Positions 10,379-63,428 of a stretch of DNA of 64,000 nt are shown here, piece after piece. Made by a program: the position numbers and the translations under genes. Source of the DNA: a virus. The first letter of the stretch is position 1. Each line of letters opens with the position of its first letter. The notes under the pieces are model-generated. The model was given only the letters and a program-made list of their open reading frames with translations, had not been told where the DNA came from and searched no databases. The stretch covers positions 2,095 through 66,094 of the IMG/VR virus record IMGVR_UViG_3300017917_003143; one strand, 5' to 3'.

Positions 10379-11434
10379 CTCACACAGTTCAGGCAGATAG
10401 TGCTTGATGCTGATTCCTTTGAGTTGGTCTTGTCGCTTTATCTGTTTTAAAAATTCTTCAAAGTTAGCTTGATCGGCGTCGGTATGAGTGTCGCCTATGT
10501 AGGTAGCATAGTCCACTGGACTCAGTACTGTTTTGAGGTGTTGTTTGACATGCTGAGGTAAAGCACGTGGTTGTAACCATGCTGGTCGATAGATTGGGTT
10601 GTTAGCGTATTCTATTTTTTGTTCATTGAACCATGCCACACTTTCATTGTGATACAGCACATTGAGATTGCTCAAGGTATAGTTTGCTGAAACCAAGTCG
10701 GTTAATTCTCGGAAAAACTTTAGATTTGATTCGAGCAGATCCCAAGCCAGTGGATATCGCACATATTCAAACACAGATCCTGTGCCATCTATGCTGACGC
10801 AAAAATTAAGATTTTTAAATTTTGACAGTATTTTTTTGTAATCTTCAGACAGTGCTACACTACCATTTGTGACCATGCTGATAAAACATCGTTCATTGCC
10901 TAATTCAAGTAACTTTTCTAAGATCTGGAAATTTTTTCTTTCATACAGCGGCTCTCCACCCAGCAAGGTCAGGGTCACAAGGCTTGAAAAATCTATTTCT
11001 TGATAGACTTTGTCCAGATCAATAAATTGATATTTCTTTATTTCTAATTTGGGGTTTCTTTTGCGATCAAGCTGTGCCCAACTGCTACTCGATCCAGAAT
11101 TACAACTCACACAAGTGGCGTTGCAAGTATAGCTGGTCAGCAGTTTGAGCATGAGTGTTTTTTCCATGCCCTGCGCCGCATCTTGTTTAATAAATTGCAG
11201 ATCTCTATCCCAGTACCAATCCAGCGCAGAATTTTTAAGTTGACGATCACTGGTCAACCCTTGATCTTCAAGATTCCAGCATTTTTGACATTCTGCAGGG
11301 CGTTTTCCAGCTATCATTTCCGCCTGGATCTTTTTTATATCATAGTCTTTGGGTAGCAAACAGCAATGGGTATCGTGGCGATCGTCCCAATTTAATTCAC
11401 GTCCAAACCAGGGTAAAACACAAAAATTGTCCAT
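10352..11434 (-). CDS. radical SAM domain protein (possible SPASM/Cys-rich auxiliary region)
   Basis: CX3CX2C motif (CNATCVSC). Additional Cys-rich N-terminal segment (CCLLP...CQKCW). Confidence 0.7.
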   Translation of the reverse strand: MDNFCVLPWFGRELNWDDRHDTHCCLLPKDYDIKKIQAEMIAGKRPAECQKCWNLEDQGLTSDRQLKNSALDWYWDRDLQFIKQDAAQGMEKTLMLKLLTSYTCNATCVSCNSGSSSSWAQLDRKRNPKLEIKKYQFIDLDKVYQEIDFSSLVTLTLLGGEPLYERKNFQILEKLLELGNERCFISMVTNGSVALSEDYKKILSKFKNLNFCVSIDGTGSVFEYVRYPLAWDLLESNLKFFRELTDLVSANYTLSNLNVLYHNESVAWFNEQKIEYANNPIYRPAWLQPRALPQHVKQHLKTVLSPVDYATYIGDTHTDADQANFEEFLKQIKRQDQLKGISIKHYLPELCELIGPDLFE

Positions 11435-24301: not shown

Positions 24302-25437
24302 CCGAGAAAAACATGAGCGTATTAAATTTAAACAAGCGTGATCACACCACCAGCTTGGCTTTCCTTGATCCACAAGGTAGCCTGGGCATGCAGAGATACG
24401 ATACACTCAAGTATCGTCAATTTGACAAACTCACCGACAAGCAGTTGGGATTCTTTTGGCGTCCAGAAGAAGTTGATGTACTCCGTGATGCCAAGGACTT
24501 CAAAGATCTCACACCCTTTGAACAGCATATTTTTACAGCCAACCTCAAGCGCCAGATCCTATTGGATTCTGTGCAAGGTCGCTCGCCAAACCTGGCTTTC
24601 TTGCCTATCGTCACACTGCCTGAACTTGAAACTTGGATAGAAACTTGGGCTTTCTCAGAGACCATCCACTCACGTTCATACACTCACATCATCCGTAACG
24701 TGTATTCAGATCCTGGGCGTGTGTTTGAAGAGATGCTCGAAATCGATGACATCATCGCCTGCGGCAACGACATTTCTAAATACTATGACGACTTGATTCG
24801 GTACAGCCAGTGGTATCTGTTGCTGGGTGCTGGCGAGCATGAATGTAATGGCACCAAGTTTGAAGTATCCGAATACGAGCTCAAGAAGAAACTATGGCTG
24901 TGCCTTAACTCTGTCAACGTGTTGGAAGGTATTCGTTTCTATGTGAGCTTTGCTTGCTCATGGGCCTTTGCTGAACTCAAGAAGATGGAAGGCAATGCCA
25001 AGATCATCAAATTGATCGCACGTGACGAAAATGTGCATCTCGGATTCACACAAAGCCTGCTAAAGATTCTACCACAAGACGACCCAGATTTTGCCAAGAT
25101 CCGCAAAGAGACCGAAGCCGAAGTCGTTGCTATGTTTGAGGACGCAGTCAAACAAGAAGAAGCCTGGGCCGATTACTTGTTCAAAGATGGATCTATGATT
25201 GGTCTCAACAAACAATTACTCTGTGACTATGTAGAATGGATTGCCCACAAGCGCATGACTGCACTTGGACTACCAAATCATTATCGTGGTGGTTCTAACC
25301 CATTGCCCTGGACACAAAAATGGATTGCAGGCGGCGATGTTCAAGTGGCCCCACAGGAAACTGAGATAACTAGTTATGTTATCGGCGGCACTAAACAAGA
25401 CGTCGACTCTAATACATTTACAGGAATGAGTTTATAA
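24289..25437 (+). CDS. nrdB: ribonucleotide reductase class Ia beta subunit
   Basis: 382 aa with di-iron ligand helices. Tyrosyl radical region. Adjacent to nrdA. Confidence 0.9.
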   Translation: MQNITEKNMSVLNLNKRDHTTSLAFLDPQGSLGMQRYDTLKYRQFDKLTDKQLGFFWRPEEVDVLRDAKDFKDLTPFEQHIFTANLKRQILLDSVQGRSPNLAFLPIVTLPELETWIETWAFSETIHSRSYTHIIRNVYSDPGRVFEEMLEIDDIIACGNDISKYYDDLIRYSQWYLLLGAGEHECNGTKFEVSEYELKKKLWLCLNSVNVLEGIRFYVSFACSWAFAELKKMEGNAKIIKLIARDENVHLGFTQSLLKILPQDDPDFAKIRKETEAEVVAMFEDAVKQEEAWADYLFKDGSMIGLNKQLLCDYVEWIAHKRMTALGLPNHYRGGSNPLPWTQKWIAGGDVQVAPQETEITSYVIGGTKQDVDSNTFTGMSL

Positions 25438-26649
25438 ATGAAAAAACGGAACTACACACAAGAGGATGTAAAGAAGTTACAAGGTAGTTTAAAGATTGAA
25501 TACACACTGGCAAAACGAGGCGCAACAAAATTGCGTGAATTGCTAGCCACAGAACCATTTGTTCCTACACTAGGAGCATACAATGGACAGCAGGCAGTAC
25601 AACATGCCAAAGCTGGACTTAAAGCAATCTATCTATCAGGTTGGCAAGTGGCCGCTGCCGCAAATACCAGTGGTCGTGTTTATCCAGACCAATCACTATA
25701 CCCAGTTGACTCAGTGCCTAGTGTTGTTAAAGAAATCAACAACGCACTTCGCCGTGCTGATCAAATCCAAACACTAGAAGGAGTCGGTACAACAGACTAC
25801 TACTTGCCTATCATCGCAGACTGTGAAGCAGGCTTTGGTGGAGCACTAAACGCATACGAACTAACACTGAGCTGTATCGAAGCAGGTGCGGCCGCTGTTC
25901 ACTTTGAAGATCAATTGAGTTCAGAAAAGAAATGCGGACACCTGGGTGGTAAAGTATTGATTCCAACCAAACAGGCTATTCGTAACTTAAATGCCGCACG
26001 ACTGGCCGCTGATGTTGCAGAAGTAGACACAGTTATTCTTGCTCGCACAGACGCAGAGTCAGGCACATTGATTACCAGTGACATTGATCCTGTGGATCAA
26101 CCATTTGTTGACTACACAAAAGAACGTACTGAAGAAGGCTTCTATCACTTTAAGAATGGTCTAGGTGCTTGTATTGCTCGTGGTCTTGCTTATGCTGAAT
26201 ACGCAGACTTGTTATGGTTTGAAACATCAACTCCTGACCTGGCACAAGCTCAAGCATTCGCTGATGCTATCCATGAAAAGTTTCCAAATCAACAGTTGGC
26301 CTACAACTGCTCACCTAGCTTCAACTGGCGCAAGTATTTGACAGAAGAACAATGTGAGAGCTTCCAAGCAGAGATTGGTCGGATGGGCTATGCTTATCAG
26401 TTCATTACACTTGCTGGCTTCCACTGCAACAACTTGGCTACTTTTGAAATGGCAGAAGCCTATCAAAAGACAGGCATGCGTGGCTATTCAGAAATGCAAC
26501 AACGTGAGTTCGCCGCACAAGAGCGTGGCTTTACCACAGTTAAGCATCAGCGTGAAGCAGGCGTTCCATACTTTGATGCTATCGCTACAGCAGTTGGCGC
26601 AACATCAACAACAGCATTGGCACACTCAACAGAAGCGGATCAGTTTTAA
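25438..26649 (+). CDS. aceA: isocitrate lyase
   Basis: ICL signature KKCGHLGGK within a 403 aa ICL/PEP-mutase-fold protein. N-terminus typical of ICL. Confidence 0.8.
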
Positions 26650-35601: not shown

Positions 35602-36801
35602 ATGAATGAATCGTCTCAATATGAAAATTGCAGTTTTTGTAACAAACACAAAGACGAAGTAAAGAAACTGATAGTTGGCAATGGTGTAGCTATATGCAAT
35701 GAATGTGTCGACCTTTGCCAGAGTTTATTGGATGAAGACATCAAGGAAAGACCCAAGGATCTCACTGACATAGATCCACAAGAACTTAAATCCTATCTTG
35801 ATCAATATGTGATAGGTCAGGATCGCGCAAAGATGGTACTGAGCGTGGCCATCTCCAATCATTACAAGCGAATCCAACATCGCGATTCTGATGTAGAAAT
35901 TGACAAAGCCAACATCCTCATGCTTGGACCCACTGGGTCGGGCAAAACCTTGTTGGCCAAAACTGTGGCACGGTATCTCGACGTGCCGTTTGCCATAGCA
36001 GATGCCACATCTGTGACCGAAGCCGGATATGTAGGCGATGATGTAGAAAGCCTGATCCAGCGCCTGCTTACTGCCGCTGGTGGCGATGTAGAAAAATGCC
36101 AACGTGGTATCATATTTGTCGACGAGATCGACAAGATCGCTCGCAAGAGTGAGTCAGCATCAATCACAAGAGATGTTTCGGGAGAAGGTGTACAACAGGC
36201 CTTGCTTAAAATGGTCGAGGGCACTGTTTGTCGCATACCAGCCGCAGGTGGCCGCAAGCATCCAGGCGGTGAAATGCTTGAAGTTGATACCCGTAACATA
36301 CTGTTTATCGCAGGCGGTGCGTTTGTTGGTCTAGACCAGATAGTTAAAAAACGCATGTACGGTACCAGCATGGGCTTTGGTGCCACAGTGAGCCAACCCA
36401 AAGAAATCAGTCTTGAGCACGTGGTACCCGACGACCTTGTGAAGTTTGGATTGATTCCTGAATTCGTGGGTCGATTCCCTAGCTGGGTCAATCTGGATGA
36501 ACTCACCACAGAAGATCTTATCCATGTGCTCACAGATACTAAAAACTCATTGGTCAAGCAATATCAGCACCTTTTTGCCGCAGACAAAGTCGACCTTGAT
36601 TTTGAGCATGAAGCTCTAGAAACTATCGCGAAGAGATCAGCAGATTTTGGAACCGGTGCCCGTGCTCTGCACAGCGAACTTGAGCGTGTGTTGATGCCAC
36701 ACATGTTCAATATCAAACGCTACCGAGACCGTGGAATAAACCGCGTAGTTATTAACAAAGAACAAATAAATAATCCTACACCCGTTTACAAGGAGGAATA
36801 G
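35602..36801 (+). CDS. clpX: ATP-dependent protease ATPase subunit ClpX
   Basis: N-terminal C4 zinc-binding domain (CSFCNK...CNEC). Walker A GPTGSGKTLLAKT, Walker B IFVDEIDKI, sensor and IGF-loop region. Confidence 0.95.
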   Translation: MNESSQYENCSFCNKHKDEVKKLIVGNGVAICNECVDLCQSLLDEDIKERPKDLTDIDPQELKSYLDQYVIGQDRAKMVLSVAISNHYKRIQHRDSDVEIDKANILMLGPTGSGKTLLAKTVARYLDVPFAIADATSVTEAGYVGDDVESLIQRLLTAAGGDVEKCQRGIIFVDEIDKIARKSESASITRDVSGEGVQQALLKMVEGTVCRIPAAGGRKHPGGEMLEVDTRNILFIAGGAFVGLDQIVKKRMYGTSMGFGATVSQPKEISLEHVVPDDLVKFGLIPEFVGRFPSWVNLDELTTEDLIHVLTDTKNSLVKQYQHLFAADKVDLDFEHEALETIAKRSADFGTGARALHSELERVLMPHMFNIKRYRDRGINRVVINKEQINNPTPVYKEE

Positions 36802-46365: not shown

Positions 46366-48432
46366 ATGCTGAAAAAATCCACCATTAAAAAACTGTTAGT
46401 TAGCCCTTGGACTGCGCTGATCACATTGGCGCTGATTATTGGATTGAGAGTAGCCGATCCTACTTTTGTAGAAAGTGTAAGACTGCGCTATTTTGATACC
46501 TTGATCACTGCCCAAGAACCCACGACCAATGATATCTACACTGTAAACATCGATGAGGATACTATTGCCAAGTACGGACAGTGGCCGTTTGATCGTCGTG
46601 TGTATGCTAACCTTATTGAAGACTTGTACAAAAGAAATGCTGGTCTAGTCATATTTAATGTTATGATGCCTGAGCGCGATCGGTCAGGCGGCGATGGATC
46701 CTTGGCAGCCACACTCAACGAACTAGATGTCATACTGCCTAACTTGCCTGCAGATCGTATGAAAAATACACCAAGACAGCCGGGCACTGCTGTGATAGGA
46801 GCAGAATTCTCTGATCAGATAGTACAATATCCTGGCATCATAGCCAACATTGACATGCTGGAAAAACGAGCCCGAGGTGTAGGCATAGTGGCTACCTTGC
46901 CTGAAGTGGACGGTGTCAACCGTAGGATGCCTTTGGTCGTGGCAGTGGACGGCAGAGTATATCCCAGCCTGGCCATGGAAGTGTTACGAGTTTCAGCCGG
47001 CGATAGTACCACACAGATCAAGCTCAATGAACTGGGTGTGGAAAAGATGCGCATACCTGCATTTGGCCCCATCGCCACCGACAGCCTGGGACGTATATGG
47101 ATTGACTGGAGCCAGCGCAGTCACAGTGTGTCGGCTGCAAACTTGCCCAAAGATTTTGGTGGTGCTGATGTCATAGTGGGCGTGGCCGCAGGTGGATTAG
47201 GTAATCCTGTGCCCACTCCTCGTGGTGCTGTGTGGCCACATGAAGTACAGGCCGCTGTGATAGCCACAATGTTCAACGGTGTCACGATTGAACGACCTGA
47301 CTATGCTGATGGTGTTGAAATCATATTCATAGCGGTCATAGGATTGATTATTATTGGAATGTCGAGGTGGACTTATGCAGGTATTCTTATATCTATTATT
47401 GGGATCATTGCCCCTATTGTTGCCAGTAGCCTGGCTTACAGTGAATGGCGAATCCTGGCGGACGCGACAGCAAGCACGGTTGGTCTTGTTCTCGTGGCTC
47501 TGCATACTTACGGGGTTAAGTTTGTAAGCGAGTTCTTGCAAAAGCAACAGATCAAAAAACAATTTGGAACTTATCTAAGCCCAGATCTTGTAGCACAACT
47601 GCAACGCAACCCTGATCTACTGGTATTAGGTGGAGACAGTCGTGAGTTAAGTATCATGTTCACAGATGTGCGTGGCTTTACAAGTATCAGCGAACACTAT
47701 GGTAAAGACGTTCAAGGACTTACAAAGATCATGAACCGCTATATGACAGCCATGACTAAAAAGATCTTGGAAAACAAAGGTACATTAGACAAGTACATCG
47801 GTGATGCACAGATGGCATTCTGGAACGCACCCTTGGACAACACACAGCATGCCAAGGATGCTGTAAAAACAGCTTTAGAAATGTTAGGGAGTTTGGATGA
47901 GTTCAATAGAGAAGTTCAAGCAGAAGGCGTACCACCTTTTGGTATGGGCCTTGGGATCAATACTGACACCGTTGTGGTGGGTAACATGGGAAGTGATCAG
48001 CGTTTTGACTATACTTGTCTTGGTGATGGCGTCAATTTGGCTAGCCGACTGGAGGGCCAGAGTAAACCGTACGGTGTCAAAATCGTGGTGGGGGCAAAAA
48101 CTGCTGAATATGTAGCAGACGAATACCTTGTGCTGGAGCTGGATTGTATCGCTGTCAAAGGCAAAAAAGAAGGTGTCAACATCTATACTGTGTTAGGGCG
48201 TATTGATGAGTTAAACATAGCCACCGCTGACATACAGATGCACGAGTCTATGTTGGCGCTGTATCGTCAGCAGAAGTTTGATCAAGCTGCCAAGGCCTGC
48301 AACAACTTGATGGGCCGCTTTGGGGGTGCCATGGATCACTATTATGAAATGTGGATAGAGCGTTGTGGGGAAATGAAGTCTGCTGGCTTGCCCTTAGATT
48401 GGGACGGTATCTATCGAGCAACCAGCAAGTGA
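46366..48432 (+). CDS. CHASE2 sensor domain + class III adenylyl/guanylyl cyclase
   Basis: N-terminal TM with periplasmic CHASE2-like domain. Multi-TM segment. Cyclase catalytic domain (IMFTDVRGFTSISE; KYIGDAQMAFWNAP; metal-binding Asp). Confidence 0.8.
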   Translation: MLKKSTIKKLLVSPWTALITLALIIGLRVADPTFVESVRLRYFDTLITAQEPTTNDIYTVNIDEDTIAKYGQWPFDRRVYANLIEDLYKRNAGLVIFNVMMPERDRSGGDGSLAATLNELDVILPNLPADRMKNTPRQPGTAVIGAEFSDQIVQYPGIIANIDMLEKRARGVGIVATLPEVDGVNRRMPLVVAVDGRVYPSLAMEVLRVSAGDSTTQIKLNELGVEKMRIPAFGPIATDSLGRIWIDWSQRSHSVSAANLPKDFGGADVIVGVAAGGLGNPVPTPRGAVWPHEVQAAVIATMFNGVTIERPDYADGVEIIFIAVIGLIIIGMSRWTYAGILISIIGIIAPIVASSLAYSEWRILADATASTVGLVLVALHTYGVKFVSEFLQKQQIKKQFGTYLSPDLVAQLQRNPDLLVLGGDSRELSIMFTDVRGFTSISEHYGKDVQGLTKIMNRYMTAMTKKILENKGTLDKYIGDAQMAFWNAPLDNTQHAKDAVKTALEMLGSLDEFNREVQAEGVPPFGMGLGINTDTVVVGNMGSDQRFDYTCLGDGVNLASRLEGQSKPYGVKIVVGAKTAEYVADEYLVLELDCIAVKGKKEGVNIYTVLGRIDELNIATADIQMHESMLALYRQQKFDQAAKACNNLMGRFGGAMDHYYEMWIERCGEMKSAGLPLDWDGIYRATSK

Positions 48433-52009: not shown

Positions 52010-53245
52010 ATGAATATCGGTTTTATTGGCTTAGGTAAATTAGGTTTAGACTGCGCAGAAGTCTTTGCAGAACGCTACTCAGTCTATGGTTATGATATAT
52101 ATCCACGCTACAGCGACACAGTCAAAGTTTGCACCAATGTGGAAGAAGTCATTGACCACAGTGACTGGTTGTTCATTGCTGTACCTACTCCACATGCCGA
52201 AGGCTATGATGGGTCAGTACCGAGCTCACACATGGAACCCCGGGATTTTGGCCATGAAGCTGTCAAGCAAGCCATTGAGTATGTGAATGCCTATGCCAAG
52301 GAACCCAAGCGTGTTGTATTGATCTCTACTGTGCTACCAGGCACCACCCGACGCCACTTTGCTACTCTGTTGGACAAGCGTCACCAGTTCTTATACAACC
52401 CGTATTTGATTGCCATGGGTTCTGTGAAGTGGGACATGGCCAATCCTGAGATGGTAATGATTGGTACAGAAACAGGTGATCCTAGTGAAATGCGTGATCT
52501 CATTGATTTGTACCGACCATTGATGAAAAACAACCCACGCTATGTCACAGGTACCTGGGACGAATGCGAAGCCATCAAGATTTTCTACAACACATTCATC
52601 TCAGCCAAGGTTGGTTTGGTAAACATGATCCAAGACTTTGCCTTAAAAATTGGCAACATCAACGTAGACGTTGTGACAGATGCCTTGGCACAATCCACCA
52701 TGCGTATCATGGGACCCAAGTACATGACAGCAGGCATGGGTGATGCAGGTGCTTGCCACCCACGTGATAACATCGCCCTGCGTTGGTTGGCCGAAGAATA
52801 CGACATTGGATATGACTTGTTTGATACCATCATGCATGCTCGTGAAGTGCAGGCCAAGAACCTTGCGCTGTTCTTGGTAGATCAAGCTAAAACAAACAAT
52901 CTGCCTATCGTGATACACGGCAAAGCATACAAGCCAGATGTTCCCTACTGTATTGGAAGCTATTCTACGCTGATTGGATACTACATCAATGAAGCAGGTT
53001 TCACAGTGAAATACCTGGATCCCTTGGCCGATGACAGCACTGACGTGATCGAAGCTGTCAAAGGTGCTTGTGTATTGCTCATGGCACACAATCGACAGAT
53101 CACATACGGTTACACCGGAGATGTGCGTGATGACACTTTTTATGCACCCATAGAAGCAGGATCTATCATCGTAGATCCATGGCGCAAACTCAATGACATA
53201 GCAGGATACAAAATTATCCATTATGGTAATACAAGAAAAAACTAA
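52010..53245 (+). CDS. nucleotide-sugar dehydrogenase (UDP-glucose/GDP-mannose dehydrogenase family)
   Basis: N-terminal Rossmann IGFIGLGKLGL. VVLISTVLPGTT block. Catalytic Cys region GMGDAGACHPRD resembles GGxCFxKD. Confidence 0.65.
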   Translation: MNIGFIGLGKLGLDCAEVFAERYSVYGYDIYPRYSDTVKVCTNVEEVIDHSDWLFIAVPTPHAEGYDGSVPSSHMEPRDFGHEAVKQAIEYVNAYAKEPKRVVLISTVLPGTTRRHFATLLDKRHQFLYNPYLIAMGSVKWDMANPEMVMIGTETGDPSEMRDLIDLYRPLMKNNPRYVTGTWDECEAIKIFYNTFISAKVGLVNMIQDFALKIGNINVDVVTDALAQSTMRIMGPKYMTAGMGDAGACHPRDNIALRWLAEEYDIGYDLFDTIMHAREVQAKNLALFLVDQAKTNNLPIVIHGKAYKPDVPYCIGSYSTLIGYYINEAGFTVKYLDPLADDSTDVIEAVKGACVLLMAHNRQITYGYTGDVRDDTFYAPIEAGSIIVDPWRKLNDIAGYKIIHYGNTRKN

Positions 53246-53759
53246 ATCCTGGGGTAAATCCTGGGTAGAACCCTGGTGGGTCAGTCATCGTGATTTACCC
53301 TATGTCAATGAGCCATTCAATGATCCAGAAAGCCTGGACCTGTGGCGCAGTCTAGGGTACACACAGACCAGATTCACTGGCGATATGTATGACATGCGTA
53401 ATCCTGAGCCTTCTTGGATAGCACCGTTTCGTTTTGTTTTTCCTTGGTTGCATTTTTCATGGTCAGTGTATCGCATGGGTCCCGGTACTGTGTTGCCCAA
53501 CCACAGTGATACCTATGCTCGATTCAAAGAAATATACAACATCACTGACAGTGACAAGATATATCGTGCCATAGTCATGCTGGAAGATTGGCAGAGTGGT
53601 CACTATTTAGAGATAGATGGCACACCAGTGACCAAGTGGATCGCAGGAGACATTTATATCTGGCAGAATGATGTCCAGCATCTTGCGGCCAACATGGGCA
53701 TGACCGATCGTTATACATTACAAATCACAGGAGTCCCCATTGAAGATCCATTCCTATAA
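53223..53759 (+). CDS. hypothetical protein (cupin-like?)
   Basis: 178 aa. HSDTYARF and GDIYIWQNDVQH segments suggest a cupin/double-stranded beta-helix fold. Weak call. Confidence 0.35.
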   Translation: MVIQEKTKSWGKSWVEPWWVSHRDLPYVNEPFNDPESLDLWRSLGYTQTRFTGDMYDMRNPEPSWIAPFRFVFPWLHFSWSVYRMGPGTVLPNHSDTYARFKEIYNITDSDKIYRAIVMLEDWQSGHYLEIDGTPVTKWIAGDIYIWQNDVQHLAANMGMTDRYTLQITGVPIEDPFL

Positions 53760-54660
53760 CGAGTGGGATCCACTGCGCAGTATCGTAGTGGGTAGCGCAA
53801 AACATGCCAACTGGCCCTCTACAGATCCTGTGTTTTCAAAAGAAAGCGAAAAGACTCTGTGGAAAGAAACTCCTGTGCCCTCAGGGCCTGTGCCACAGTG
53901 GATCGTAGACGAAGCTGAAGCTGAACTAGACGATCTTGCTAAAAAACTACAGCAGTTGGGTGTGGAGGTGCATCGTCCTCAGGAAATAGATTTTGTAGCT
54001 CTGGACGGCATGTATAACTATTGCCCCAGAGATCGATTGTTAGTAGCTGGTACTGCCATAGTTGACCCTGCCATGATGTATCCCTGCAGAGACATGGAGT
54101 TGGCTGCCTACTACGACATAGTCGATAGCTGTGAAAGATACTTGCACATGCCCAGGAACGAAGGCATGGTGTTGGATGCGGCCAATGTCTGTAGACTTGG
54201 GGATACTTGGTTGTACTTGGAATCAGCATCGGGCAACCGTGCAGCCTATGAATGGCTGTGCGACCAGTTTCCAGAGATCACTATAGAGCTCTGCAATTTT
54301 TATGCGGGCGTACACATAGATTCAACCATTGTGCCCTTGAGAGAAGGCTTGGTCTTGGTCAATGCGGCCCGTGTAACGCCCGACACATTGCCCAGTGCGT
54401 TCAAAAACTGGGAAGTGCTGTATGTAGATCACGTGACAGAACAGGGCTTTTATCAGTACCCTTACGCTTCAAAATGGATTGCGTTAAATATGTTAGTGGT
54501 TGATCCTAACACAGTGATCATGGATCAGGATCAAAAGCTATTGATACGTGAGATTGAAAAATACGGAATCACAGTGATACCACACAAATTAAGCCATAGT
54601 CGCACCCTGGGTGGAGGATTCCACTGTGTGACTTTGGATCTATGGAGAGAACATGCTTGA
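53740..54660 (+). CDS. amidinotransferase-superfamily enzyme (GATM/StrB1-like), paralog 1
   Basis: C-terminal catalytic block GGGFHCVTLDLWRE matches the GGxFHC.T.D..R nucleophile motif. TTG start after AGGAG. Confidence 0.6.
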   Translation: MKIHSYNEWDPLRSIVVGSAKHANWPSTDPVFSKESEKTLWKETPVPSGPVPQWIVDEAEAELDDLAKKLQQLGVEVHRPQEIDFVALDGMYNYCPRDRLLVAGTAIVDPAMMYPCRDMELAAYYDIVDSCERYLHMPRNEGMVLDAANVCRLGDTWLYLESASGNRAAYEWLCDQFPEITIELCNFYAGVHIDSTIVPLREGLVLVNAARVTPDTLPSAFKNWEVLYVDHVTEQGFYQYPYASKWIALNMLVVDPNTVIMDQDQKLLIREIEKYGITVIPHKLSHSRTLGGGFHCVTLDLWREHA

Positions 54661-56886: not shown

Positions 56887-57915
56887 ATGAATACTACAAA
56901 ACGCATCGGTTTTTGCTGTAAATGGATTGATGATCCTAGCGAAACAGCTGGCCGCAAACTCACTACAGAAAGTCGTGATCTAAACGGGCGTTCAACTACC
57001 ATGCGTTGGTTGCGTGAGCACCCTGAGGAAGCTGAACAACGCCAGTGGGACATCATGAATCACAATGCTCGAGCCGCGCTGAACATGGTCGAGCGTGTGG
57101 GCAATCTACCTGAGCATCTGCGCCTGGTACGCTTGGGCAGTGAAATGCTACAGGGCTACACCGAGCCCAACTGGATCGACTGGTGGCAACAAGCAGACAT
57201 CCAACGTCATCTAGAACAGATTTTCGCTCCTGTGGGTGCTCGTGCTAGAGAACTGGGTGTGCGACTCAGCTTCCATCCTGGGCAGTTTTGTGTGTTGGCA
57301 TCTGCAGATGATGGTATCGTAGAGCGCAGTATTCTTGAGTTTGAATATCATGCAGACATGGCTCGTTGGATGGGCTACGGCAAAGAATGGCACGATCATG
57401 GATTCCATATCAATGTTCACCTAAGTGGCAAGGGCGGTCCTGAAAAGTTCCTGCGAACCCTTGGCAAACTTTCTCCTGAGGCCCGCAACCTCATAACTAT
57501 CGAAAACGACGAGATATCAAATGGTTTGGACATTACTCTTCTTGTGGCTGATCGTGTGGCTCTTGTGCTGGACGTTCATCACCATTGGGTCAACACCGGC
57601 GAGTACATCTCGCCAACGGACGCTCGTGTTCAGCGTGTGGTTGAGTCTTGGCGTGACACTCGCCCTGTTATGCATTACAGTGTTAGTCGCGAAGATATTC
57701 TTGTTGATCATGATCCCGGACTTCGCCCAGATCTTAGTGGACTTCTTGCACGAGGTTATAAAAAACAGCAGTTACGGGCACACTCCGACTTCTACTGGAA
57801 TCACGCTGTAAACGAGTGGGCGGCAGACTTTACACAAATTGCCGACATTGAATGCGAAGCCAAGGGTAAAAATCTAGCTCGTGACGGATTTGTGAAATTT
57901 GTAAACCTAGCATGA
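56887..57915 (+). CDS. uvdE: UV damage endonuclease UvdE
   Basis: Collinear UvdE blocks VRLSFHPGQFCVLAS, INVHLSGKGG, ITIENDE and VLDVHHHW. Confidence 0.8.
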   Translation: MNTTKRIGFCCKWIDDPSETAGRKLTTESRDLNGRSTTMRWLREHPEEAEQRQWDIMNHNARAALNMVERVGNLPEHLRLVRLGSEMLQGYTEPNWIDWWQQADIQRHLEQIFAPVGARARELGVRLSFHPGQFCVLASADDGIVERSILEFEYHADMARWMGYGKEWHDHGFHINVHLSGKGGPEKFLRTLGKLSPEARNLITIENDEISNGLDITLLVADRVALVLDVHHHWVNTGEYISPTDARVQRVVESWRDTRPVMHYSVSREDILVDHDPGLRPDLSGLLARGYKKQQLRAHSDFYWNHAVNEWAADFTQIADIECEAKGKNLARDGFVKFVNLA

Positions 57916-58777: not shown

Positions 58778-59922
58778 ATAAAATATCTCAGGCTAATTTA
58801 TTCTTTACTCCGACATTATTGAGTTGGTATGGTCGCGACACCGAGTATGAAGCTGACATTCTGAGATTCAAAGGATTCGATCAGTACAATTATCTAGTAG
58901 AAATAAATCGCATGTTTTCAAACGGTCCAAAAGGACAGCCGTTGGATCGTACCGGAAACATACATCTTCCACTCAAATACGATACACGCCGCCCTTGGAA
59001 ATTTATCAACACCCCTATGAGTTTAGAAGACGCTTTGTCTGCCCGAGTGTCTGATCTTTTGTCTCGTGGCGTCAAAGTCAATTTGTTATGGAGCGGAGGG
59101 ATCGACTCGACCACCATGGTCAATGCTTTTTTATCCAATGCCCAAGACCACAGTCAGTTACGGGTTCTATACTCACCTTACTCGAGTTACGAGCATAGAG
59201 AATACCTAACAGATTTTCTGCCCAAGTTTCCAGCGGTTGAACTAGTAGACATCAGCGGGGATGTTTATCTCAATCAGCAGTTTGACGGAATTTTTGTCAC
59301 CGGAGACACCGGAGACGAAACCCACGCCAGCATGGATGAAAGCTTCTTGGCAGAATTTGGTTATGATGTGCTGTCACAACCCTGGCGAGACTTTTTCTTC
59401 AAAAGAACACAGGATGAAAAGTTCATTGAATTCTGCGACACATATTTTAGCTGGGCAGGTCGCCCCATCGACACTGTGCTCGAAGCAAGATGGTGGTTCT
59501 ATATCAACTCTAAGATGTATTGTATGCTGGCAACAAAGTTGTCTTTCTTTACCGATTATAAAAATTTCTCGCCCGACATGGTGCACGGTTTTTTTGATTG
59601 TGATGAATTTGAAAATTACATATCTCACAATGTGGACCGTATCATGACCACACCAGATTATGCGTCGTGGAAGCAAGACCTTAAAGATTACTGTAGGAAT
59701 TTTGACGGATTCGATCAATGGGCCAAAGAAACCATAAAGAACGGAAGTTCCCAGTTGCACGCCTACATTTATAAAAAGACCGTGCTCAACGATCAGCGAT
59801 TTATTTTCATCCTCAACGATGGAACACGGGTACACACACCAAGTTTGCCACTGTTGAGCCGCAAAGAATTTAATAATCGTTACGGAAATAGTCTGGACTA
59901 TTTGTTAAATGACCCAATTTAA
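58774..59922 (+). CDS. PP-loop ATP pyrophosphatase (asparagine synthase-like / QueC-like)
   Basis: SGGIDSTT PP-loop motif in LLWSGGIDSTTMVNAF. 382 aa. Confidence 0.6.
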   Translation: MNKISQANLFFTPTLLSWYGRDTEYEADILRFKGFDQYNYLVEINRMFSNGPKGQPLDRTGNIHLPLKYDTRRPWKFINTPMSLEDALSARVSDLLSRGVKVNLLWSGGIDSTTMVNAFLSNAQDHSQLRVLYSPYSSYEHREYLTDFLPKFPAVELVDISGDVYLNQQFDGIFVTGDTGDETHASMDESFLAEFGYDVLSQPWRDFFFKRTQDEKFIEFCDTYFSWAGRPIDTVLEARWWFYINSKMYCMLATKLSFFTDYKNFSPDMVHGFFDCDEFENYISHNVDRIMTTPDYASWKQDLKDYCRNFDGFDQWAKETIKNGSSQLHAYIYKKTVLNDQRFIFILNDGTRVHTPSLPLLSRKEFNNRYGNSLDYLLNDPI

Positions 59923-60913
59923 ATTCAATGCCCCTTGGGACACTCTCAAACATACCTGGGTCGGTTGCACTTACGGTCCGGAGTTTTTCCAGCCCATACG
60001 CAATTCCAAGATACGAGAGTCTTTGCAAAAAATCGTACAAGAAACAGAAGAAGATTATCAAACATTGATTTCTACCCTGACCACATTTGGCATCAAGGTA
60101 TCACGTCCTGTGATCGACTCCAATCTTACGATCATGGACTATATCAACGATCAAGGAAAATTAAATTTCCAAGATTCAAAAAGTTTTACTCTGATACCCA
60201 GACCTCCCATGCAACCTCGAGACAGCATGTTGGTAATCGGTGATCAAGCGATATCCACTCTTGAAGAGTCTTCGTGGTTTTACCCTGACTTGGAAAAATC
60301 GCCCTTGCCGTTTGATGCACCCTTGGTCACAGTGGTCGGAAAACATGTCATAGTTGATTGCAGGGATCATCCGTGGTTGGCAGAATATATACAGCAAAGG
60401 TTTCCAGATCGCAAGGTGATTCCTGTTTATATCGGCGGGCATAACGATGCTGTGTTTTGTCCAGTCAAACCAGGAGTCATTATCAGTACCTATCATCACG
60501 ACAACTACACTGACACTTTTCCTGGCTGGGAAGTCAAGTATATTGAAAACCAGAGTTGGAATGCCATACCTGGATGGAGAAAGTTTAAACATTCCAATGT
60601 TGACAAATGGTGGGTGCCTGACGCAGACAACAATCCTGAATTTGCGAATTTTGTAGACACCTGGTTGAGTCAATGGGTGGGCTATGTCAAAGAAACTGTG
60701 TTTGATGTCAATATGTTGCAAATCAACGAACACACTGTGCTGGTCAACAATTATAATCAGGAGATGTTTGATTTTTTTAAAACACATGGCATTGAAGCCA
60801 TAGTGACGCCCTTCCGTCATAGATTTTTTTGGGATGGTGGGATACATTGTATCACTGGAGACATATACCGAGAAGGAGAAGCCGATGTGGCATTCATTAA
60901 CGCCCAAGGGTAA
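59909..60913 (+). CDS. amidinotransferase-superfamily enzyme (GATM/StrB1-like), paralog 2
   Basis: C-terminal DGGIHCITGDIYRE catalytic Cys block. Overall collinear with 53740..54660. Confidence 0.6.
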   Translation: MTQFKFNAPWDTLKHTWVGCTYGPEFFQPIRNSKIRESLQKIVQETEEDYQTLISTLTTFGIKVSRPVIDSNLTIMDYINDQGKLNFQDSKSFTLIPRPPMQPRDSMLVIGDQAISTLEESSWFYPDLEKSPLPFDAPLVTVVGKHVIVDCRDHPWLAEYIQQRFPDRKVIPVYIGGHNDAVFCPVKPGVIISTYHHDNYTDTFPGWEVKYIENQSWNAIPGWRKFKHSNVDKWWVPDADNNPEFANFVDTWLSQWVGYVKETVFDVNMLQINEHTVLVNNYNQEMFDFFKTHGIEAIVTPFRHRFFWDGGIHCITGDIYREGEADVAFINAQG

Positions 60914-61409
60914 GATACCTTATGTGCCTAAATGGAATCTGTGGTGCAAAATATCCCCAGTGATCACAGTGGGTGATGATGTCCTTGATGCTGATCGATT
61001 GGGAGAGTTTGGATCAGACCTACACGGATTTGAAGAGTTCAAGATATCAATACTGTATGACAACCAGGTTCTGTATTCAGGAACGTTTGATCAACACCAG
61101 CCCATAGTTGTTGATGTAGATTTATTAGACGATAAAGAAAATACAGATCATGTACTGTGCATCGGACTTGAGGGCAAGACTGACGATCACAGTTGTTTTC
61201 ATCAGGGCAAAAGCGTTTCATTGGCCGCGAAAATCAACCTAAGCATAGAACAGATGCCCTTGGATCTCCATGTCATGGCAACAGGTATAAAAACCATCGC
61301 AGGCGAAAACGGCGTACAGAATTTTTCTATTAGCACACCTATCTATCGTTGGCTACTGAAAAATCATGAGCATATAACGGCTGATTTATATTCGATATAT
61401 AAAGAATGA
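60885..61409 (+). CDS. hypothetical protein
   Basis: ATG preceded by GAAGGAGAAG within ORF 60834..61409. 174 aa. Confidence 0.45.
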   Translation: MWHSLTPKGKIPYVPKWNLWCKISPVITVGDDVLDADRLGEFGSDLHGFEEFKISILYDNQVLYSGTFDQHQPIVVDVDLLDDKENTDHVLCIGLEGKTDDHSCFHQGKSVSLAAKINLSIEQMPLDLHVMATGIKTIAGENGVQNFSISTPIYRWLLKNHEHITADLYSIYKE

Positions 61410-62116
61410 CCCTATTTTTATACATCCTGGTGATGACACATATCACCATAGCCTGTGTTACCCTTTATTTGCATCGTAGCCAAGCTCATCGTGGCGTCAC
61501 GTTTGACCCACGTGTGAGTCATTTCATGCGTTTTTGGCTGTGGTTGACCACAGGCATGGTTACCAAACAATGGGTAGCCACACATCGCAAACATCATAGA
61601 TTCACCGACGCAGAAGGCGATCCGCACAGTCCTAGAAACGAAGGCATCTGGCAAATCTTGCTGGGCGGTGCCTTTTACTATGCCTGGGCCGCAAAAGATC
61701 GGGCCATGGTCGAACAATACGGAGCAGGAACACCCGATGATTGGATGGAACGCAACATATACACTCCATTCAATTGGTTGGGTGTGACACTAATGTTCTT
61801 TATCAACTGCATGATCTGGGGATGGGCTTGGGGGTGGTTGCCTTGGCTATGGCAGATGATCTGGATTCCGCTATGGGCCGCAGGAGTCATAAACGGGCTT
61901 GGACACTGGTGGGGCTACCGCAACACACAGACCCGAGACTATTCAACCAATATAGTACCTTGGGCGTTTTTTATCGGCGGCGAAGAACTGCACAACAATC
62001 ACCATGCTGATCCTGCCAGTCCCAAACTCAGCCAAAAGCGTTGGGAATGGGATCTGGGTTGGACCTATATCCGTATTTTAGAACGCTGTAAATTGGCTAC
62101 ATTACGGACAAACTAA
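61406..62116 (+). CDS. membrane fatty-acid desaturase (delta-9/stearoyl-CoA desaturase-like)
   Basis: Three His boxes HRSQAH, HRKHHRFTDAEGDPHSP and HNNHH with SCD-like spacing. Multiple TM helices. Confidence 0.7.
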   Translation: MTLFLYILVMTHITIACVTLYLHRSQAHRGVTFDPRVSHFMRFWLWLTTGMVTKQWVATHRKHHRFTDAEGDPHSPRNEGIWQILLGGAFYYAWAAKDRAMVEQYGAGTPDDWMERNIYTPFNWLGVTLMFFINCMIWGWAWGWLPWLWQMIWIPLWAAGVINGLGHWWGYRNTQTRDYSTNIVPWAFFIGGEELHNNHHADPASPKLSQKRWEWDLGWTYIRILERCKLATLRTN

Positions 62117-62249
62117 TTTGCTCAAAATCGTCAAATAGACGTAGATTTTTGTTGCGTTGCAACATAAATATCATATATAATAATGCAACACCAAGACGCT
62201 GGATGGTCCGGGTCTTGTACCGTAAACTCGCTTAACTAAGGAGAAAAAC

Positions 62250-62525
62250 ATGTTTACATTTGATTCAACAATCGACGCAGTACAAACAGGCAAGAAGCAG
62301 TTCGTAAAGACTTTCGTAACAGACGAAAAGATCGCTGATGCTTTAAACCAATTCATTGACAACCAAACTGAGTACACCAAAAAAGCTGTCAAAGCCACAG
62401 TGGACGCAGGTACCACAGTTGCTCAAGAGTCTATCAAGCACATCCAAGAAGCCGCTAAATTTGATTATACCAAATTTGGTGAAGGCATCATGAAGGCCTA
62501 CACAGCGCAAACCAAAACCAAGTAA
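62250..62525 (+). CDS. phasin-like small helical protein
   Basis: 91 aa Lys/Thr-rich helical protein. Leader shares a ~50 nt conserved motif with the hsp20 leader. Strong RBS AAGGAGA. Confidence 0.4.
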   Translation: MFTFDSTIDAVQTGKKQFVKTFVTDEKIADALNQFIDNQTEYTKKAVKATVDAGTTVAQESIKHIQEAAKFDYTKFGEGIMKAYTAQTKTK

Positions 62526-62560
62526 TTTGGGCAAAAAACGGTAAAGCTCGCGCTAGACCA

Positions 62561-62605
62561 GAAAATCCTACTTGTGTAATAATACACACATAGTAGGATT
62601 TTTTA
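62561..62605 (+). terminator. rho-independent terminator
   Basis: AAAATCCTACT-[TGTGTAataatACACA]-TAGTAGGATTTT nested hairpin followed by a T run. Confidence 0.75.
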
Positions 62606-62628
62606 TGACCAATCTTTTAGGAGAAGCT

Positions 62629-62751
62629 ATGAAGCACTTGGTTATCGCATTATTCGTGGCCTGTTTGACAGGTTGTGGTACGATTGGAGGCATGGTTTCC
62701 GGTGCCGGTTCCGATCTTTCTAAAGCCGGGGAATGGATCAAATCTAAATGA
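62629..62751 (+). CDS. entericidin-like small lipoprotein, not in ORF track
   Basis: 40 aa MKHLVIALFVACLTGCGTIGGMVSGAGSDLSKAGEWIKSK. Lipobox LTGC. RBS TAGGAGAAG. Overlaps the next gene as ATGA. Confidence 0.5.
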   Translation: MKHLVIALFVACLTGCGTIGGMVSGAGSDLSKAGEWIKSK

Positions 62752-63428
62752 AAAAGACAGCACTTTATCTTGCCGTGATCACGACTCTTGGCCTCACTGC
62801 CTGTAGCTCAACCAAGGTCGCAGACGTAGGATCGGGCACCGCAGTCCCTCCTGGCACACAACAAGCCATCTCTGAACAACGTGCGGCTTCTGATTTCAAG
62901 CGCGAAGGTGTGCGTGTGATTTATAGTTTCACTGGCAATCTTGAAGCCGTAGAAGCCGTAGGCTATGCTCCAGTCTGGGGCAACAGCCAGAATGCTGTGC
63001 AACAGGCCTATGAAACTGCCTATGTATTGGCCAAGGATCGCATGAGTTCTTTCTTGCATCCAGAGACTATCACTTCTAAGCGTTTTGTAGATACCATCGC
63101 AAAGAACTTGGAAAAGGCACGTGACAACAAGACCAACAAGTTTGCTACCAACAAGAACAATGACTTCTCTTTTGAAACCGCGGACACTGAAGCCGCTCGA
63201 GAGGGCGAAGTCAATCGCGAAGAAAACACTGCGGTACGCAACGATGCTGTCAATATCGCATCTAACATCCGTACCACAGTGAGCATCCAACGTTCAGGTA
63301 TCCTGGGCGGTGTAGTGCTCAAAGAAGGTCGTGTTATCAACGACGGTAAGAATGTACAGGTGATTGTGCGTTGGGATCGCAAAGACAACAGTCAGCGTCG
63401 TGTGATCCTTAAAGAAATGATGCAGTGA
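62748..63428 (+). CDS. lipoprotein
   Basis: Signal peptide with lipobox LGLTACSS. 226 aa. Confidence 0.5.
   Translation: MKKTALYLAVITTLGLTACSSTKVADVGSGTAVPPGTQQAISEQRAASDFKREGVRVIYSFTGNLEAVEAVGYAPVWGNSQNAVQQAYETAYVLAKDRMSSFLHPETITSKRFVDTIAKNLEKARDNKTNKFATNKNNDFSFETADTEAAREGEVNREENTAVRNDAVNIASNIRTTVSIQRSGILGGVVLKEGRVINDGKNVQVIVRWDRKDNSQRRVILKEMMQ

What the first reader, a model, noticed from the sequence alone, without database searches (positions are those of the whole stretch)
61406..62116. Virus-encoded delta-9-type fatty-acid desaturase
Three histidine boxes (HRSQAH / HRKHHRFTD...DPHSP / HNNHH) with stearoyl-CoA-desaturase-like spacing in a 236-aa multi-TM protein. The phage may adjust host membrane fluidity during infection, for instance under cold or stress.
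Basis: partly seen in the sequence, partly recalled or inferred. Interest (0 to 1): 0.55.

Follow-up and report, generated by a model that had tools for sequence, protein, structure and literature searches.

The report
Huge-phage membrane fatty-acid desaturase gene
A roughly 344-kb freshwater phage carries an intact, strongly conserved membrane fatty-acid desaturase, probably used to add double bonds to host membrane lipids during infection; phage desaturases are a known class, so this is a well-supported but unsurprising new member.

Summary
ORF 61406-62116 (+) encodes a 236-aa protein with HRSQAH, HRKHH and HNNHH boxes, plus the extra Asn/His pair (N163/H167) of the SCD1 di-iron site.

- **Family and fold:** it matches Pfam FA_desaturase (E=4e-16) and the core of NCBIfam DesA family (369 bits). 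The AlphaFold model superposes on mouse SCD1 (TM 0.70).
- **Virus origin:** the window is phage. The exact protein lies on a 343,632-bp contig, and at least 598 IMG/VR contigs encode relatives, the closest (84-93%) on 209-357 kb contigs.
- **Constraint:** purifying selection is strong (dN/dS about 0.03-0.05, with dS near saturation).
- **What differs:** all 79 viral relatives with a complete C-terminus are 220-299 aa. They lack the ~150-aa "DesA/ISL3 alpha-bundle tail" found in 57 of 58 bacterial relatives. They group apart from bacteria, with at most 65% identity, so this is an old phage lineage, not a recent host capture.
- **Inferred, not shown:** Δ9 specificity, phospholipid substrate, use of host electron donors and the fluidity benefit. 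The host is unknown.

Phage desaturases are already published (cyanophages, tested in yeast; Arctic brine and Lake Baikal viruses), and IMG already auto-annotates this cluster as Δ9 desaturase. Verdict: new member of a known kind, moderate-to-low interest.

The parts
61406..62116 (+). Desaturase ORF, 236 aa plus stop (tail-less DesA-like membrane fatty-acid desaturase)
   Evidence: ORF call. Pfam PF00487 E=4e-16. NCBIfam NF049918 369 bits, profile positions 10-240 of 385. SCD1 fold, TM 0.70. dN/dS 0.03-0.05.
61409..61486 (+). N-terminal membrane helix (residues 2-27), leading into His box 1; equivalent to SCD1 TM2, with no TM1 equivalent
   Evidence: Model helix H2-27. Hydropathy peak 2.04. 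Alignment to 4ymk begins at chain residue 88.
61472..61489 (+). His box 1, HRSQAH (H23, H28)
   Evidence: Sequence. H23, R24, Q26, A27 and H28 are invariant in 26 relatives. Aligned to SCD1 HRLWSH.
61583..61597 (+). His box 2, HRKHH (H60, H63, H64)
   Evidence: Invariant H60, R61, H63, H64. Aligned to SCD1 HRAHH.
61619..61633 (+). Conserved DPHSP motif (D72-P76) after box 2
   Evidence: G71, D72, P73, H74, S75 and P76 are invariant. Aligned to SCD1 DPHN.
61772..61879 (+). Trp-rich membrane hairpin (residues 123-158), equivalent to SCD1 TM3/TM4
   Evidence: Model helices 123-138 and 144-158. Hydropathy peaks.
61892..61906 (+). NGLGH (N163, H167): the ninth His ligand and the water-bridging Asn of the SCD1-type di-iron site
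   Evidence: N163 and H167 are invariant. Aligned to SCD1 NSAAH.
61991..62005 (+). His box 3, HNNHH (H196, H199, H200)
   Evidence: H196, N198, H199 and H200 are invariant. Aligned to SCD1 HNYHH.
61406..61409 (+). ATGA start/stop overlap with the upstream ORF (60834 or 60885 to 61409), implying co-transcription and translational coupling
   Evidence: The upstream ORF is not a conserved partner: it is seen only in L092, at 31%.
62117..62249 (+). Intergenic spacer after the desaturase, with a weak promoter-like site (62157-62184) before the next gene. The protein ends here; no tail domain is encoded downstream.
   Evidence: consensus match only. tblastn with 57 bacterial tails found nothing in the window.

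Best explanation
The ORF encodes a functional, oxygen-dependent, di-iron integral-membrane acyl-lipid desaturase of the bacterial DesA type, reduced to its catalytic core. It is carried as an auxiliary metabolic gene by a ~344-kb freshwater tailed phage.

Shown:
- The gene is intact and sits in a phage genome.
- All nine His ligands and the Asn of the SCD1-type di-iron site are present and invariant in relatives.
- The predicted fold is SCD1-like.
- It is under strong purifying selection.
- It belongs to a large phage-borne clade that lacks the bacterial DesA/ISL3 tail.

Inferred:
- After infection the protein inserts into the host inner membrane, with the N-terminus outside and the His boxes on the cytoplasmic face.
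- It takes electrons from generic host carriers of the ferredoxin/flavodoxin type. No carrier gene is seen in the window or beside the gene in relatives.
- It uses O2 to introduce a cis double bond, most likely Δ9, into saturated C16/C18 chains already esterified in phospholipids.
- This raises or maintains membrane unsaturation while host lipid synthesis is shut down, over what is probably a long infection cycle in cold lake water.
For: - ORF and motifs.
- Family: Pfam FA_desaturase above cutoff. NCBIfam DesA family E=2e-110 over profile positions 10-240 of 385.
- Sequence match to solved structures: phmmer to mouse and human SCD1, with all ligands aligned.
- Conservation: 26-sequence alignment with H23, H28, H60, H63, H64, N163, H167, H196, H199 and H200 invariant.
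- Fold: AF2 model pLDDT 81, pTM 0.81. Foldseek top hits are SCD1 4ymk, 6wf2 and 4zyo, probability 1.00, TM 0.70.
- Selection: dN/dS 0.03-0.05 against L092, L093, L096 and L099.
- Phage context: helicase, primase, RNR, ligase, tail-spike, baseplate and virion proteins. The exact protein is on a 343,632-bp contig. At least 598 IMG/VR contigs carry relatives, the best 84-93% identical on 209-357 kb contigs. Long-contig contexts are all phage-like and partly syntenic.
- Closest cellular proteins: 55-60% identical DesA-family enzymes of Pseudomonadota, one of which I checked and which scores as a full DesA (643 bits).
- Biochemistry of that family: P. aeruginosa DesA makes Δ9 bonds in 16:0 at sn-2 of existing phospholipids (PMC10634369). 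A 394-aa Pseudomonas DesA raises unsaturated fatty acids when expressed alone in E. coli (PMC4975390), so generic host donors can suffice.
- Precedent: cyanophage desaturases shown to be Δ9 enzymes in yeast ole1 (PMC5776448).
Against: - No activity, substrate, regiospecificity or expression timing is measured here.
- The protein scores below the DesA equivalog cutoff (369 against 400) and lacks the ~150-aa tail present in 57 of 58 bacterial relatives. The tail's function is unknown, so tail-less activity is an assumption. It is supported only indirectly, by purifying selection and by DesC and SCD enzymes working without such a tail.
- dS is near saturation (1.5-2.0), so the dN/dS values are approximate.
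- The host is unknown, so whether it already has a desaturase or lives in oxic, cold water is unknown.
- The electron donor of DesA is not established even in Pseudomonas (DesC does not serve P. putida DesA).
- The superfamily also contains hydroxylases and desaturases of other regiospecificity.
Confidence: 0.72

Rival explanations
1. It is an acyl-CoA (stearoyl-CoA-type, DesB/SCD-like) desaturase. It would act on free acyl-CoA pools, for example scavenged fatty acids, rather than on phospholipid-bound chains.
For: The fold and ligand set are those of SCD1. IMG's automatic name for the cluster is 'stearoyl-CoA desaturase (delta-9)'. The Lake Baikal viral genes were called acyl-CoA desaturases.
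Against: Identity to SCD1 is only about 19%, against 55-60% to the bacterial DesA family, whose characterised member acts on phospholipids. SCD's TM1 is absent. No DesC-like oxidoreductase partner is adjacent, whereas DesB needs one.
Confidence: 0.1
2. It has the same fold but different chemistry or target. It could be a desaturase of other regiospecificity, a hydroxylase, or an enzyme acting on another envelope lipid such as lipid A acyl chains, ornithine lipids or hopanoids. In that case the phage clade has diverged functionally from DesA.
For: The viral clade is old and separate: at most 65% identity to any bacterial sequence sampled, and a bacteria-free clade holding at least 90% of viral sequences in 85 of 100 bootstraps. 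It lacks the tail. The window protein scores below the equivalog cutoff. The FA_desaturase superfamily is functionally diverse (general knowledge).
Against: More than 55% identity across the whole core to Δ9 DesA enzymes usually preserves regiospecificity. All motif variants are of the Δ9 'first desaturase' type (HX4H, HX2HH, HX2HH plus NX3H). Other viral desaturases that were tested are Δ9 enzymes.
Confidence: 0.12
3. It is a passenger or decaying gene with no role in infection: a truncated remnant of a bacterial desA picked up by chance.
For: It is about 150 aa shorter than bacterial DesA. Its immediate neighbours vary between related phages.
Against: The same short length occurs in all 79 viral relatives with complete ends and in hundreds of IMG/VR contigs. 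The 90%-identity cluster has 750 members. dN/dS is 0.03-0.05. All catalytic residues are invariant. Composition is within the range of other window genes: GC 0.49 against 0.43-0.50. There is no tail remnant downstream.
Confidence: 0.03
4. The contig is cellular rather than viral, so the gene is an ordinary bacterial desaturase.
For: The window holds many metabolic genes: isocitrate lyase, RNR, ClpX, UDP-glucose dehydrogenase and lipoproteins.
Against: PHROG hits to tail-spike, baseplate and virion structural proteins, plus phage-type replication genes. Nearly all genes are on one strand and most ORFs lack a Pfam match. Syntenic relatives are IMG/VR viral genomes of 209-357 kb. Shared genes with Methylophilales phage Melnitz and Pelagibacter phage HTVC008M. 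No tRNA genes were found and no ribosomal or other core cellular genes turned up among the ORFs scanned.
Confidence: 0.03

Closest known systems
Bacterial DesA family (NCBIfam NF049918; P. aeruginosa PA0286 DesA, Pseudomonas sp. A3 PA3FAD9)
   Same: The catalytic core is 55-60% identical. The N-terminal single helix, the His boxes, their spacing (37 and about 135 residues) and the NX3H motif are the same. The likely reaction is also the same: Δ9 desaturation of phospholipid-bound 16:0.
   Different: It lacks the ~150-aa C-terminal DesA/ISL3 alpha-bundle tail (NF049919/PF01610). It scores 369 against the 400-bit equivalog cutoff. It is encoded by a phage and belongs to a separate, old clade.
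Cyanophage vFADs (DesC-like Δ9 lipid desaturases; Roitman et al. 2018, PMC5776448)
   Same: A phage-borne auxiliary gene for a membrane Δ9-type acyl-lipid desaturase, with the same proposed role in keeping host membranes unsaturated.
   Different: They belong to a different subfamily (cyanobacterial DesC clades, against proteobacterial DesA-like here). They sit in ~200-kb cyanomyophages rather than ~340-kb freshwater phages. Their activity was shown experimentally; here it was not.
vFADs of Arctic cryopeg/sea-ice viruses and acyl-CoA desaturases of Lake Baikal Nitrospirota viruses (PMC7300359, PMC7678222)
   Same: Metagenomic viral desaturases with three His boxes, modelled on SCD1, under purifying selection, and proposed to raise fluidity in the cold.
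   Different: Several of those are close to host genes (up to 93.6% identical, or with best hits to the host). This clade is at most 65% identical to any bacterial sequence sampled. I could not compare them directly because their sequences are not held in the tools.
Mammalian stearoyl-CoA desaturase 1 (PDB 4YMK, 6WF2, 4ZYO)
   Same: The fold matches (TM 0.70). All nine His ligands and the Asn of the di-iron centre align, with the same box order and spacing.
   Different: About 19% identity. SCD1 has an extra TM1 and a longer C-terminus. It uses acyl-CoA substrate and cytochrome b5 as electron donor.
Pelagibacter phage Mosig EXVC030M 'putative FA_desaturase domain protein'
   Same: It is the only isolated phage in the 50,697-record collection with a detectable homolog. 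Its close relatives (HTVC008M, Melnitz) share a CHASE2-cyclase gene with this window.
   Different: Only 27% identity over 66% of the query (E=1e-4), so it is a different desaturase lineage.

Membership tests
Membrane-bound fatty-acid desaturase superfamily (Pfam PF00487) | Profile HMM score above the gathering threshold | tested here: met
   59.9 bits against 29.7, E=4.3e-16, residues 5-205.
Membrane-bound fatty-acid desaturase superfamily (Pfam PF00487) | Three His boxes (HX3-4H, HX2-3HH, HX2-3HH) in the canonical order and spacing | tested here: met
   HRSQAH at 23, HRKHH at 60, HNNHH at 196. Spacing is 37 and 136, against 37 and 135 in Pseudomonas DesA. The boxes are invariant in 26 relatives.
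Membrane-bound fatty-acid desaturase superfamily (Pfam PF00487) | SCD1-type fold with the ninth His and the Asn on the helix preceding box 3 | tested here: met
   N163 and H167 align to SCD1 NSAAH. The AF2 model against 4ymk_A gives TM 0.70, probability 1.00. The structure is predicted, not experimental.
Membrane-bound fatty-acid desaturase superfamily (Pfam PF00487) | Di-iron binding and O2- and electron-donor-dependent desaturation | not testable with these tools
   Needs biochemistry.
DesA family desaturase (NCBIfam NF049918, equivalog) | Whole-protein score at or above the 400-bit curated cutoff | tested here: not met
   369.4 bits, covering profile positions 10-240 of 385. A bacterial relative scores 642.8. 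Some other tail-less proteins just pass (P0108 400.5; P0121 410.8; L013 418.4).
DesA family desaturase (NCBIfam NF049918, equivalog) | C-terminal DesA/ISL3 alpha-bundle tail (NF049919; PF01610-like) | tested here: not met
   The protein ends 36 residues after box 3. tblastn with 57 bacterial tails finds nothing in the window or in any viral locus. The tail is present in 57 of 58 bacterial relatives.
DesA family desaturase (NCBIfam NF049918, equivalog) | Δ9 desaturation of 16:0 at sn-2 of existing phospholipids | not testable with these tools
   This property of P. aeruginosa DesA is taken from PMC10634369 and is inferred here by 55-60% core identity.
Virus-encoded fatty-acid desaturase AMGs (vFAD) | Encoded within a bona fide viral genome and flanked by viral genes | tested here: met
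Virus-encoded fatty-acid desaturase AMGs (vFAD) | Intact catalytic motifs and purifying selection | tested here: met
   (dN/dS 0.03-0.05; dS high).
Virus-encoded fatty-acid desaturase AMGs (vFAD) | Homology to the published cyanophage DesC-like vFAD clades | tested here: inconclusive
   tblastn against 50,697 phage records gives no hit at 1e-5. Only Pelagibacter phage Mosig appears, at 27%, E=1e-4. The Tara vFAD contigs are probably not in that collection, so no direct comparison was possible.
Stearoyl-CoA desaturase (SCD/OLE1, acyl-CoA type) | Four transmembrane helices (TM1-TM4) with both termini cytosolic | tested here: not met
   The alignment begins at chain residue 88 of 4ymk. Only one helix precedes box 1.
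Stearoyl-CoA desaturase (SCD/OLE1, acyl-CoA type) | Acyl-CoA substrate with cytochrome b5 as donor | not testable with these tools
   No cytochrome b5 (HPGG) motif ORF in the window. The substrate is unknown.

The most novel reading that the evidence does not exclude
The tail-less DesA-like desaturases form an ancient lineage maintained by phages: at least 598 IMG/VR contigs, thousands of metagenomic proteins, and at most 65% identity to any sampled bacterial protein. Under this reading, loss or absence of the ISL3-derived tail reflects a phage-specific mode of action. For example, the enzyme could be unregulated and always active, remodelling the inner membrane to support the long, large-burst assembly of ~340-kb phages. 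It might also have shifted in substrate or regiospecificity. That would be different from simply topping up a host stress response.
Probability: 0.15. Interest if true: 0.6.

Novelty: new member of a known kind. Interest (0 to 1): 0.33.

Why it matters
If active, this gene shows that abundant freshwater huge phages directly rewrite host membrane lipid composition. That extends a strategy shown so far only for marine cyanophages and proposed for polar and Lake Baikal viruses. The clade is very large, and it is a natural minimal-core version of DesA. It therefore offers a simple test of what the ISL3-derived tail of bacterial DesA does, and a compact desaturase for engineering. It does not overturn any current view.

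Tried and rejected
- **Conserved partner protein:** the upstream 191-aa ORF overlaps the start codon, but tblastn across 171 loci finds it only in L092, at 31%. Rejected.
- **Tail encoded separately or as a pseudogene remnant:** 57 bacterial tails give no hit in the window or in any viral locus. Rejected.
- **Multiple desaturase copies, as in the cryopeg viruses:** none in the window or the loci.
- **Phage-encoded electron carrier:** motif scans for ferredoxin, rubredoxin, flavodoxin and cytochrome b5 found nothing convincing in the 64-kb window. The other ~280 kb of the genome could not be read.
- **Host inference:**
  - No tRNAs in the window.
  - The isocitrate lyase search returned only phage relatives at 91-100% identity.
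  - The genome-collection scan gave only bacterial matches at 55-60% (Burkholderiales, Xanthomonadales, Legionella, Chromatiales).
  - The host stays unknown. A Pseudomonadota host is a weak guess.
- **Known isolated relatives:** megablast of 14 kb and tblastn against the phage collection found none. The 'moraphage' paper describes a different, Bacteroidota-infecting lineage.
- **Direction of tail gain or loss:** the midpoint-rooted NJ tree places the viral clade inside a broader short-form group, but without an outgroup the polarity is unresolved.
- **Source contig:** the first bootstrap script timed out. The source-contig look-up returned only a 5.8-kb Logan copy, not the 343,632-bp JGI contig.

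Full report
**Observation.**
- It carries HRSQAH (residues 23-28), HRKHHRFTDAEGDPHSP (60-76) and HNNHH (196-200).
- Hydropathy and the structural model give one N-terminal membrane helix (2-27) and a Trp-rich hairpin (123-158).
- The start codon overlaps the stop of the upstream ORF (ATGA). A 133-nt spacer follows the gene.

**What it is.** All lines of evidence point to a membrane di-iron desaturase.
- Pfam FA_desaturase matches above its gathering score (E=4.3e-16).
- NCBIfam's DesA-family model matches at E=2e-110, but only over profile positions 10-240 of 385. The score is 369 bits, against a cutoff of 400.
- phmmer against PDB sequences finds mouse and human SCD1. The alignment puts H23/H28, H60/H63/H64, N163/H167 and H196/H199/H200 onto the SCD1 ligand motifs HRLWSH, HRAHH, NSAAH and HNYHH.
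- Box spacing is 37 and 136 residues, against 37 and 135 reported for a Pseudomonas DesA.
- In an alignment of 26 relatives, all nine His and the Asn are invariant.
- An AlphaFold2 model (pLDDT 81, pTM 0.81) retrieves only SCD1 structures from the PDB (4ymk, 6wf2, 4zyo; probability 1.00, TM 0.70).

**Is it viral?** Yes.
- The window encodes phage-type helicases, primase, DnaB, RNR, ligase, tail-spike-like, baseplate-like and virion structural proteins. Nearly all genes sit on one strand and most ORFs have no Pfam match.
- Composition is uniform at about 45% GC.
- The exact desaturase protein and the window's isocitrate lyase are both recorded on a 343,632-bp JGI contig.
The closest (84-93% identity) lie on contigs of 209-357 kb.
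- Several of these share the upstream block (306-aa, 431-aa and 192-aa genes plus UvdE) and the downstream lipoprotein genes.
- Other long contigs (58-457 kb) carrying 65-78% relatives look equally phage-like.
- The only isolated phages with any link are distant. Melnitz and HTVC008M share a CHASE2-cyclase at 37-40%. Pelagibacter phage Mosig has a 27%-identical desaturase.

**Is it functional?**
- Pairwise Nei-Gojobori dN/dS against the closest relatives is 0.03-0.05. dS is near saturation, so these figures are approximate.
- The 90%-identity cluster has 750 members.
- Gene composition (GC 0.49) is within the range of other window genes, so it is not a fresh import from a high-GC bacterium.

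**What differs from the bacterial enzyme.**
- The species-representative genome scan returned at least 594 bacterial loci, the best only 55-60% identical. They come from Burkholderiales, Rhodanobacteraceae, Stenotrophomonas, Legionella and Chromatiales.
- ORF lengths split cleanly. Of 58 bacterial proteins, 57 are 380-500 aa, while all 79 viral ones with complete ends are 220-299 aa.
- The bacterial extra region matches Pfam DDE_Tnp_ISL3. NCBI already curates it as the 'DesA/ISL3 alpha bundle tail' (NF049919).
- No trace of that tail exists in the window or in any viral locus.
- On NJ trees the viral sequences group together. At least 90% of them fall in a bacteria-free clade in 85 of 100 bootstraps. 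At least 56 of 58 bacterial sequences form a virus-free clade in all 100.
- Maximum viral-bacterial identity is 65%.
- An exhaustive search of 1.84 billion cluster representatives shows further, more distant tail-less forms (37-47% identity). These cluster next to the viral clade.
- Tail-less forms are not strictly viral. L013 is a 256-aa version in a genuine bacterial context, beside purL and a PlsC-like acyltransferase.
- Whether the tail was lost by phages or gained by bacteria is unresolved.

**How it most likely works.**
- *Established for relatives:* P. aeruginosa DesA introduces a Δ9 double bond into 16:0 at sn-2 of existing phospholipids (PMC10634369). A 394-aa Pseudomonas DesA raises unsaturated fatty acids when expressed alone in E. 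coli (PMC4975390).
- *Inferred for the phage protein:*
  - It inserts in the host inner membrane.
  - It draws electrons from host carriers, since none is encoded nearby.
  - It desaturates phospholipid-bound saturated chains using O2.
- *Benefit:* maintaining or raising fluidity during a long infection, possibly in cold water. This is the same hypothesis published for other viral desaturases and is untested here.
- *Rivals:* acyl-CoA substrate, altered chemistry, passenger gene, or cellular contig. These are scored in their own section; the last two are effectively excluded.

**Comparison with what is known.**
- Phage desaturases are established. Cyanophage DesC-like vFADs were shown to be Δ9/C16 enzymes in yeast (PMC5776448).
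- A pelagiphage scaffold carries one (PMC11480375).
- Arctic brine viruses carry twelve (PMC7300359).
- Lake Baikal Nitrospirota viruses carry one alongside ferredoxins (PMC7678222).
- A relative at 65% identity is already in GenBank as 'OLE1 Fatty-acid desaturase [uncultured Caudovirales phage]' (CAB4133305.1). IMG auto-labels this cluster 'stearoyl-CoA desaturase (delta-9)'.
- I found no paper describing this particular tail-less DesA-like clade or its association with ~340-kb freshwater phages. That is the modest new element.

**Verdict.** It is a new member of a known kind. Interest is moderate-to-low.

Noticed in passing
window 25438-26649 (+), directly after RNR large/small subunits 21986-25437: Phage-encoded isocitrate lyase (Pfam ICL E=3e-100). 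It is 91-96% identical across more than 100 relatives on 240-370 kb contigs, far more conserved than the desaturase. Huge-phage ICL genes are mentioned in a 2025 preprint (10.1101/2025.02.27.640493).
   Followed up: partly
window 46366-48432 (+): CHASE2 sensor fused to an adenylate/guanylate cyclase domain. It is 40% identical to Methylophilales phage Melnitz and 37% to Pelagibacter phage HTVC008M proteins. In relative L001 the homolog lies right next to the desaturase.
   Followed up: partly
window 35602-36801 (+); L001 3151-3771, L004 14891-15484: The phage encodes a ClpX-like unfoldase with a zinc finger. Related huge-phage contigs encode ClpP, suggesting a phage-borne protease system.
   Followed up: no
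window 53740-54660 (+) and 59909-60913 (+): Two paralogous proteins end in a GGIHC-type motif, with a weak arginine-deiminase (guanidino-group-modifying enzyme) match. One of them is part of the conserved block upstream of the desaturase. Function unknown.
   Followed up: no
window 62250-63428 (+): Three small genes lie downstream of the desaturase: a 91-aa protein, a ~40-aa lipoprotein with an LTGC lipobox and a weak Entericidin match (E=0.11), and a 226-aa lipoprotein. They are conserved with the desaturase in the closest relatives (L092-L095, 78-94%) and may form an envelope-targeting gene cluster.
   Followed up: partly
bacterial loci L012-L091, e.g. L018 residues 279-404 of the 407-aa protein: The C-terminal ~125 aa of bacterial DesA desaturases are homologous to part of ISL3-family transposases (PF01610, 34.5 bits; NCBIfam NF049919 'DesA/ISL3 alpha bundle tail'). 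This is a domesticated transposase fragment of unknown function. It is already curated by NCBI.
   Followed up: yes
L013 3959-4729: A rare, genuinely bacterial tail-less DesA-like gene (256 aa; box 1 HRAMAH) in a gammaproteobacterial MAG. It is flanked by purL and a PlsC-like acyltransferase.
   Followed up: partly
window 56887-57915 (+) and 52010-53245 (+); 10352-11434 (-): A UV-damage endonuclease UvdE, a UDP-glucose/GDP-mannose dehydrogenase-like gene and a radical-SAM protein. UvdE sits upstream of the desaturase in many relatives. In L006 the desaturase instead sits beside the primase / DnaB / radical-SAM block, so the gene has moved within this phage lineage.
   Followed up: partly
L009 6011-6445 (relative's locus): A ferritin-like gene lies about 1.5 kb upstream of the desaturase in one related phage contig. 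That is suggestive for iron supply to a di-iron enzyme, but it is not seen in the window.
   Followed up: no
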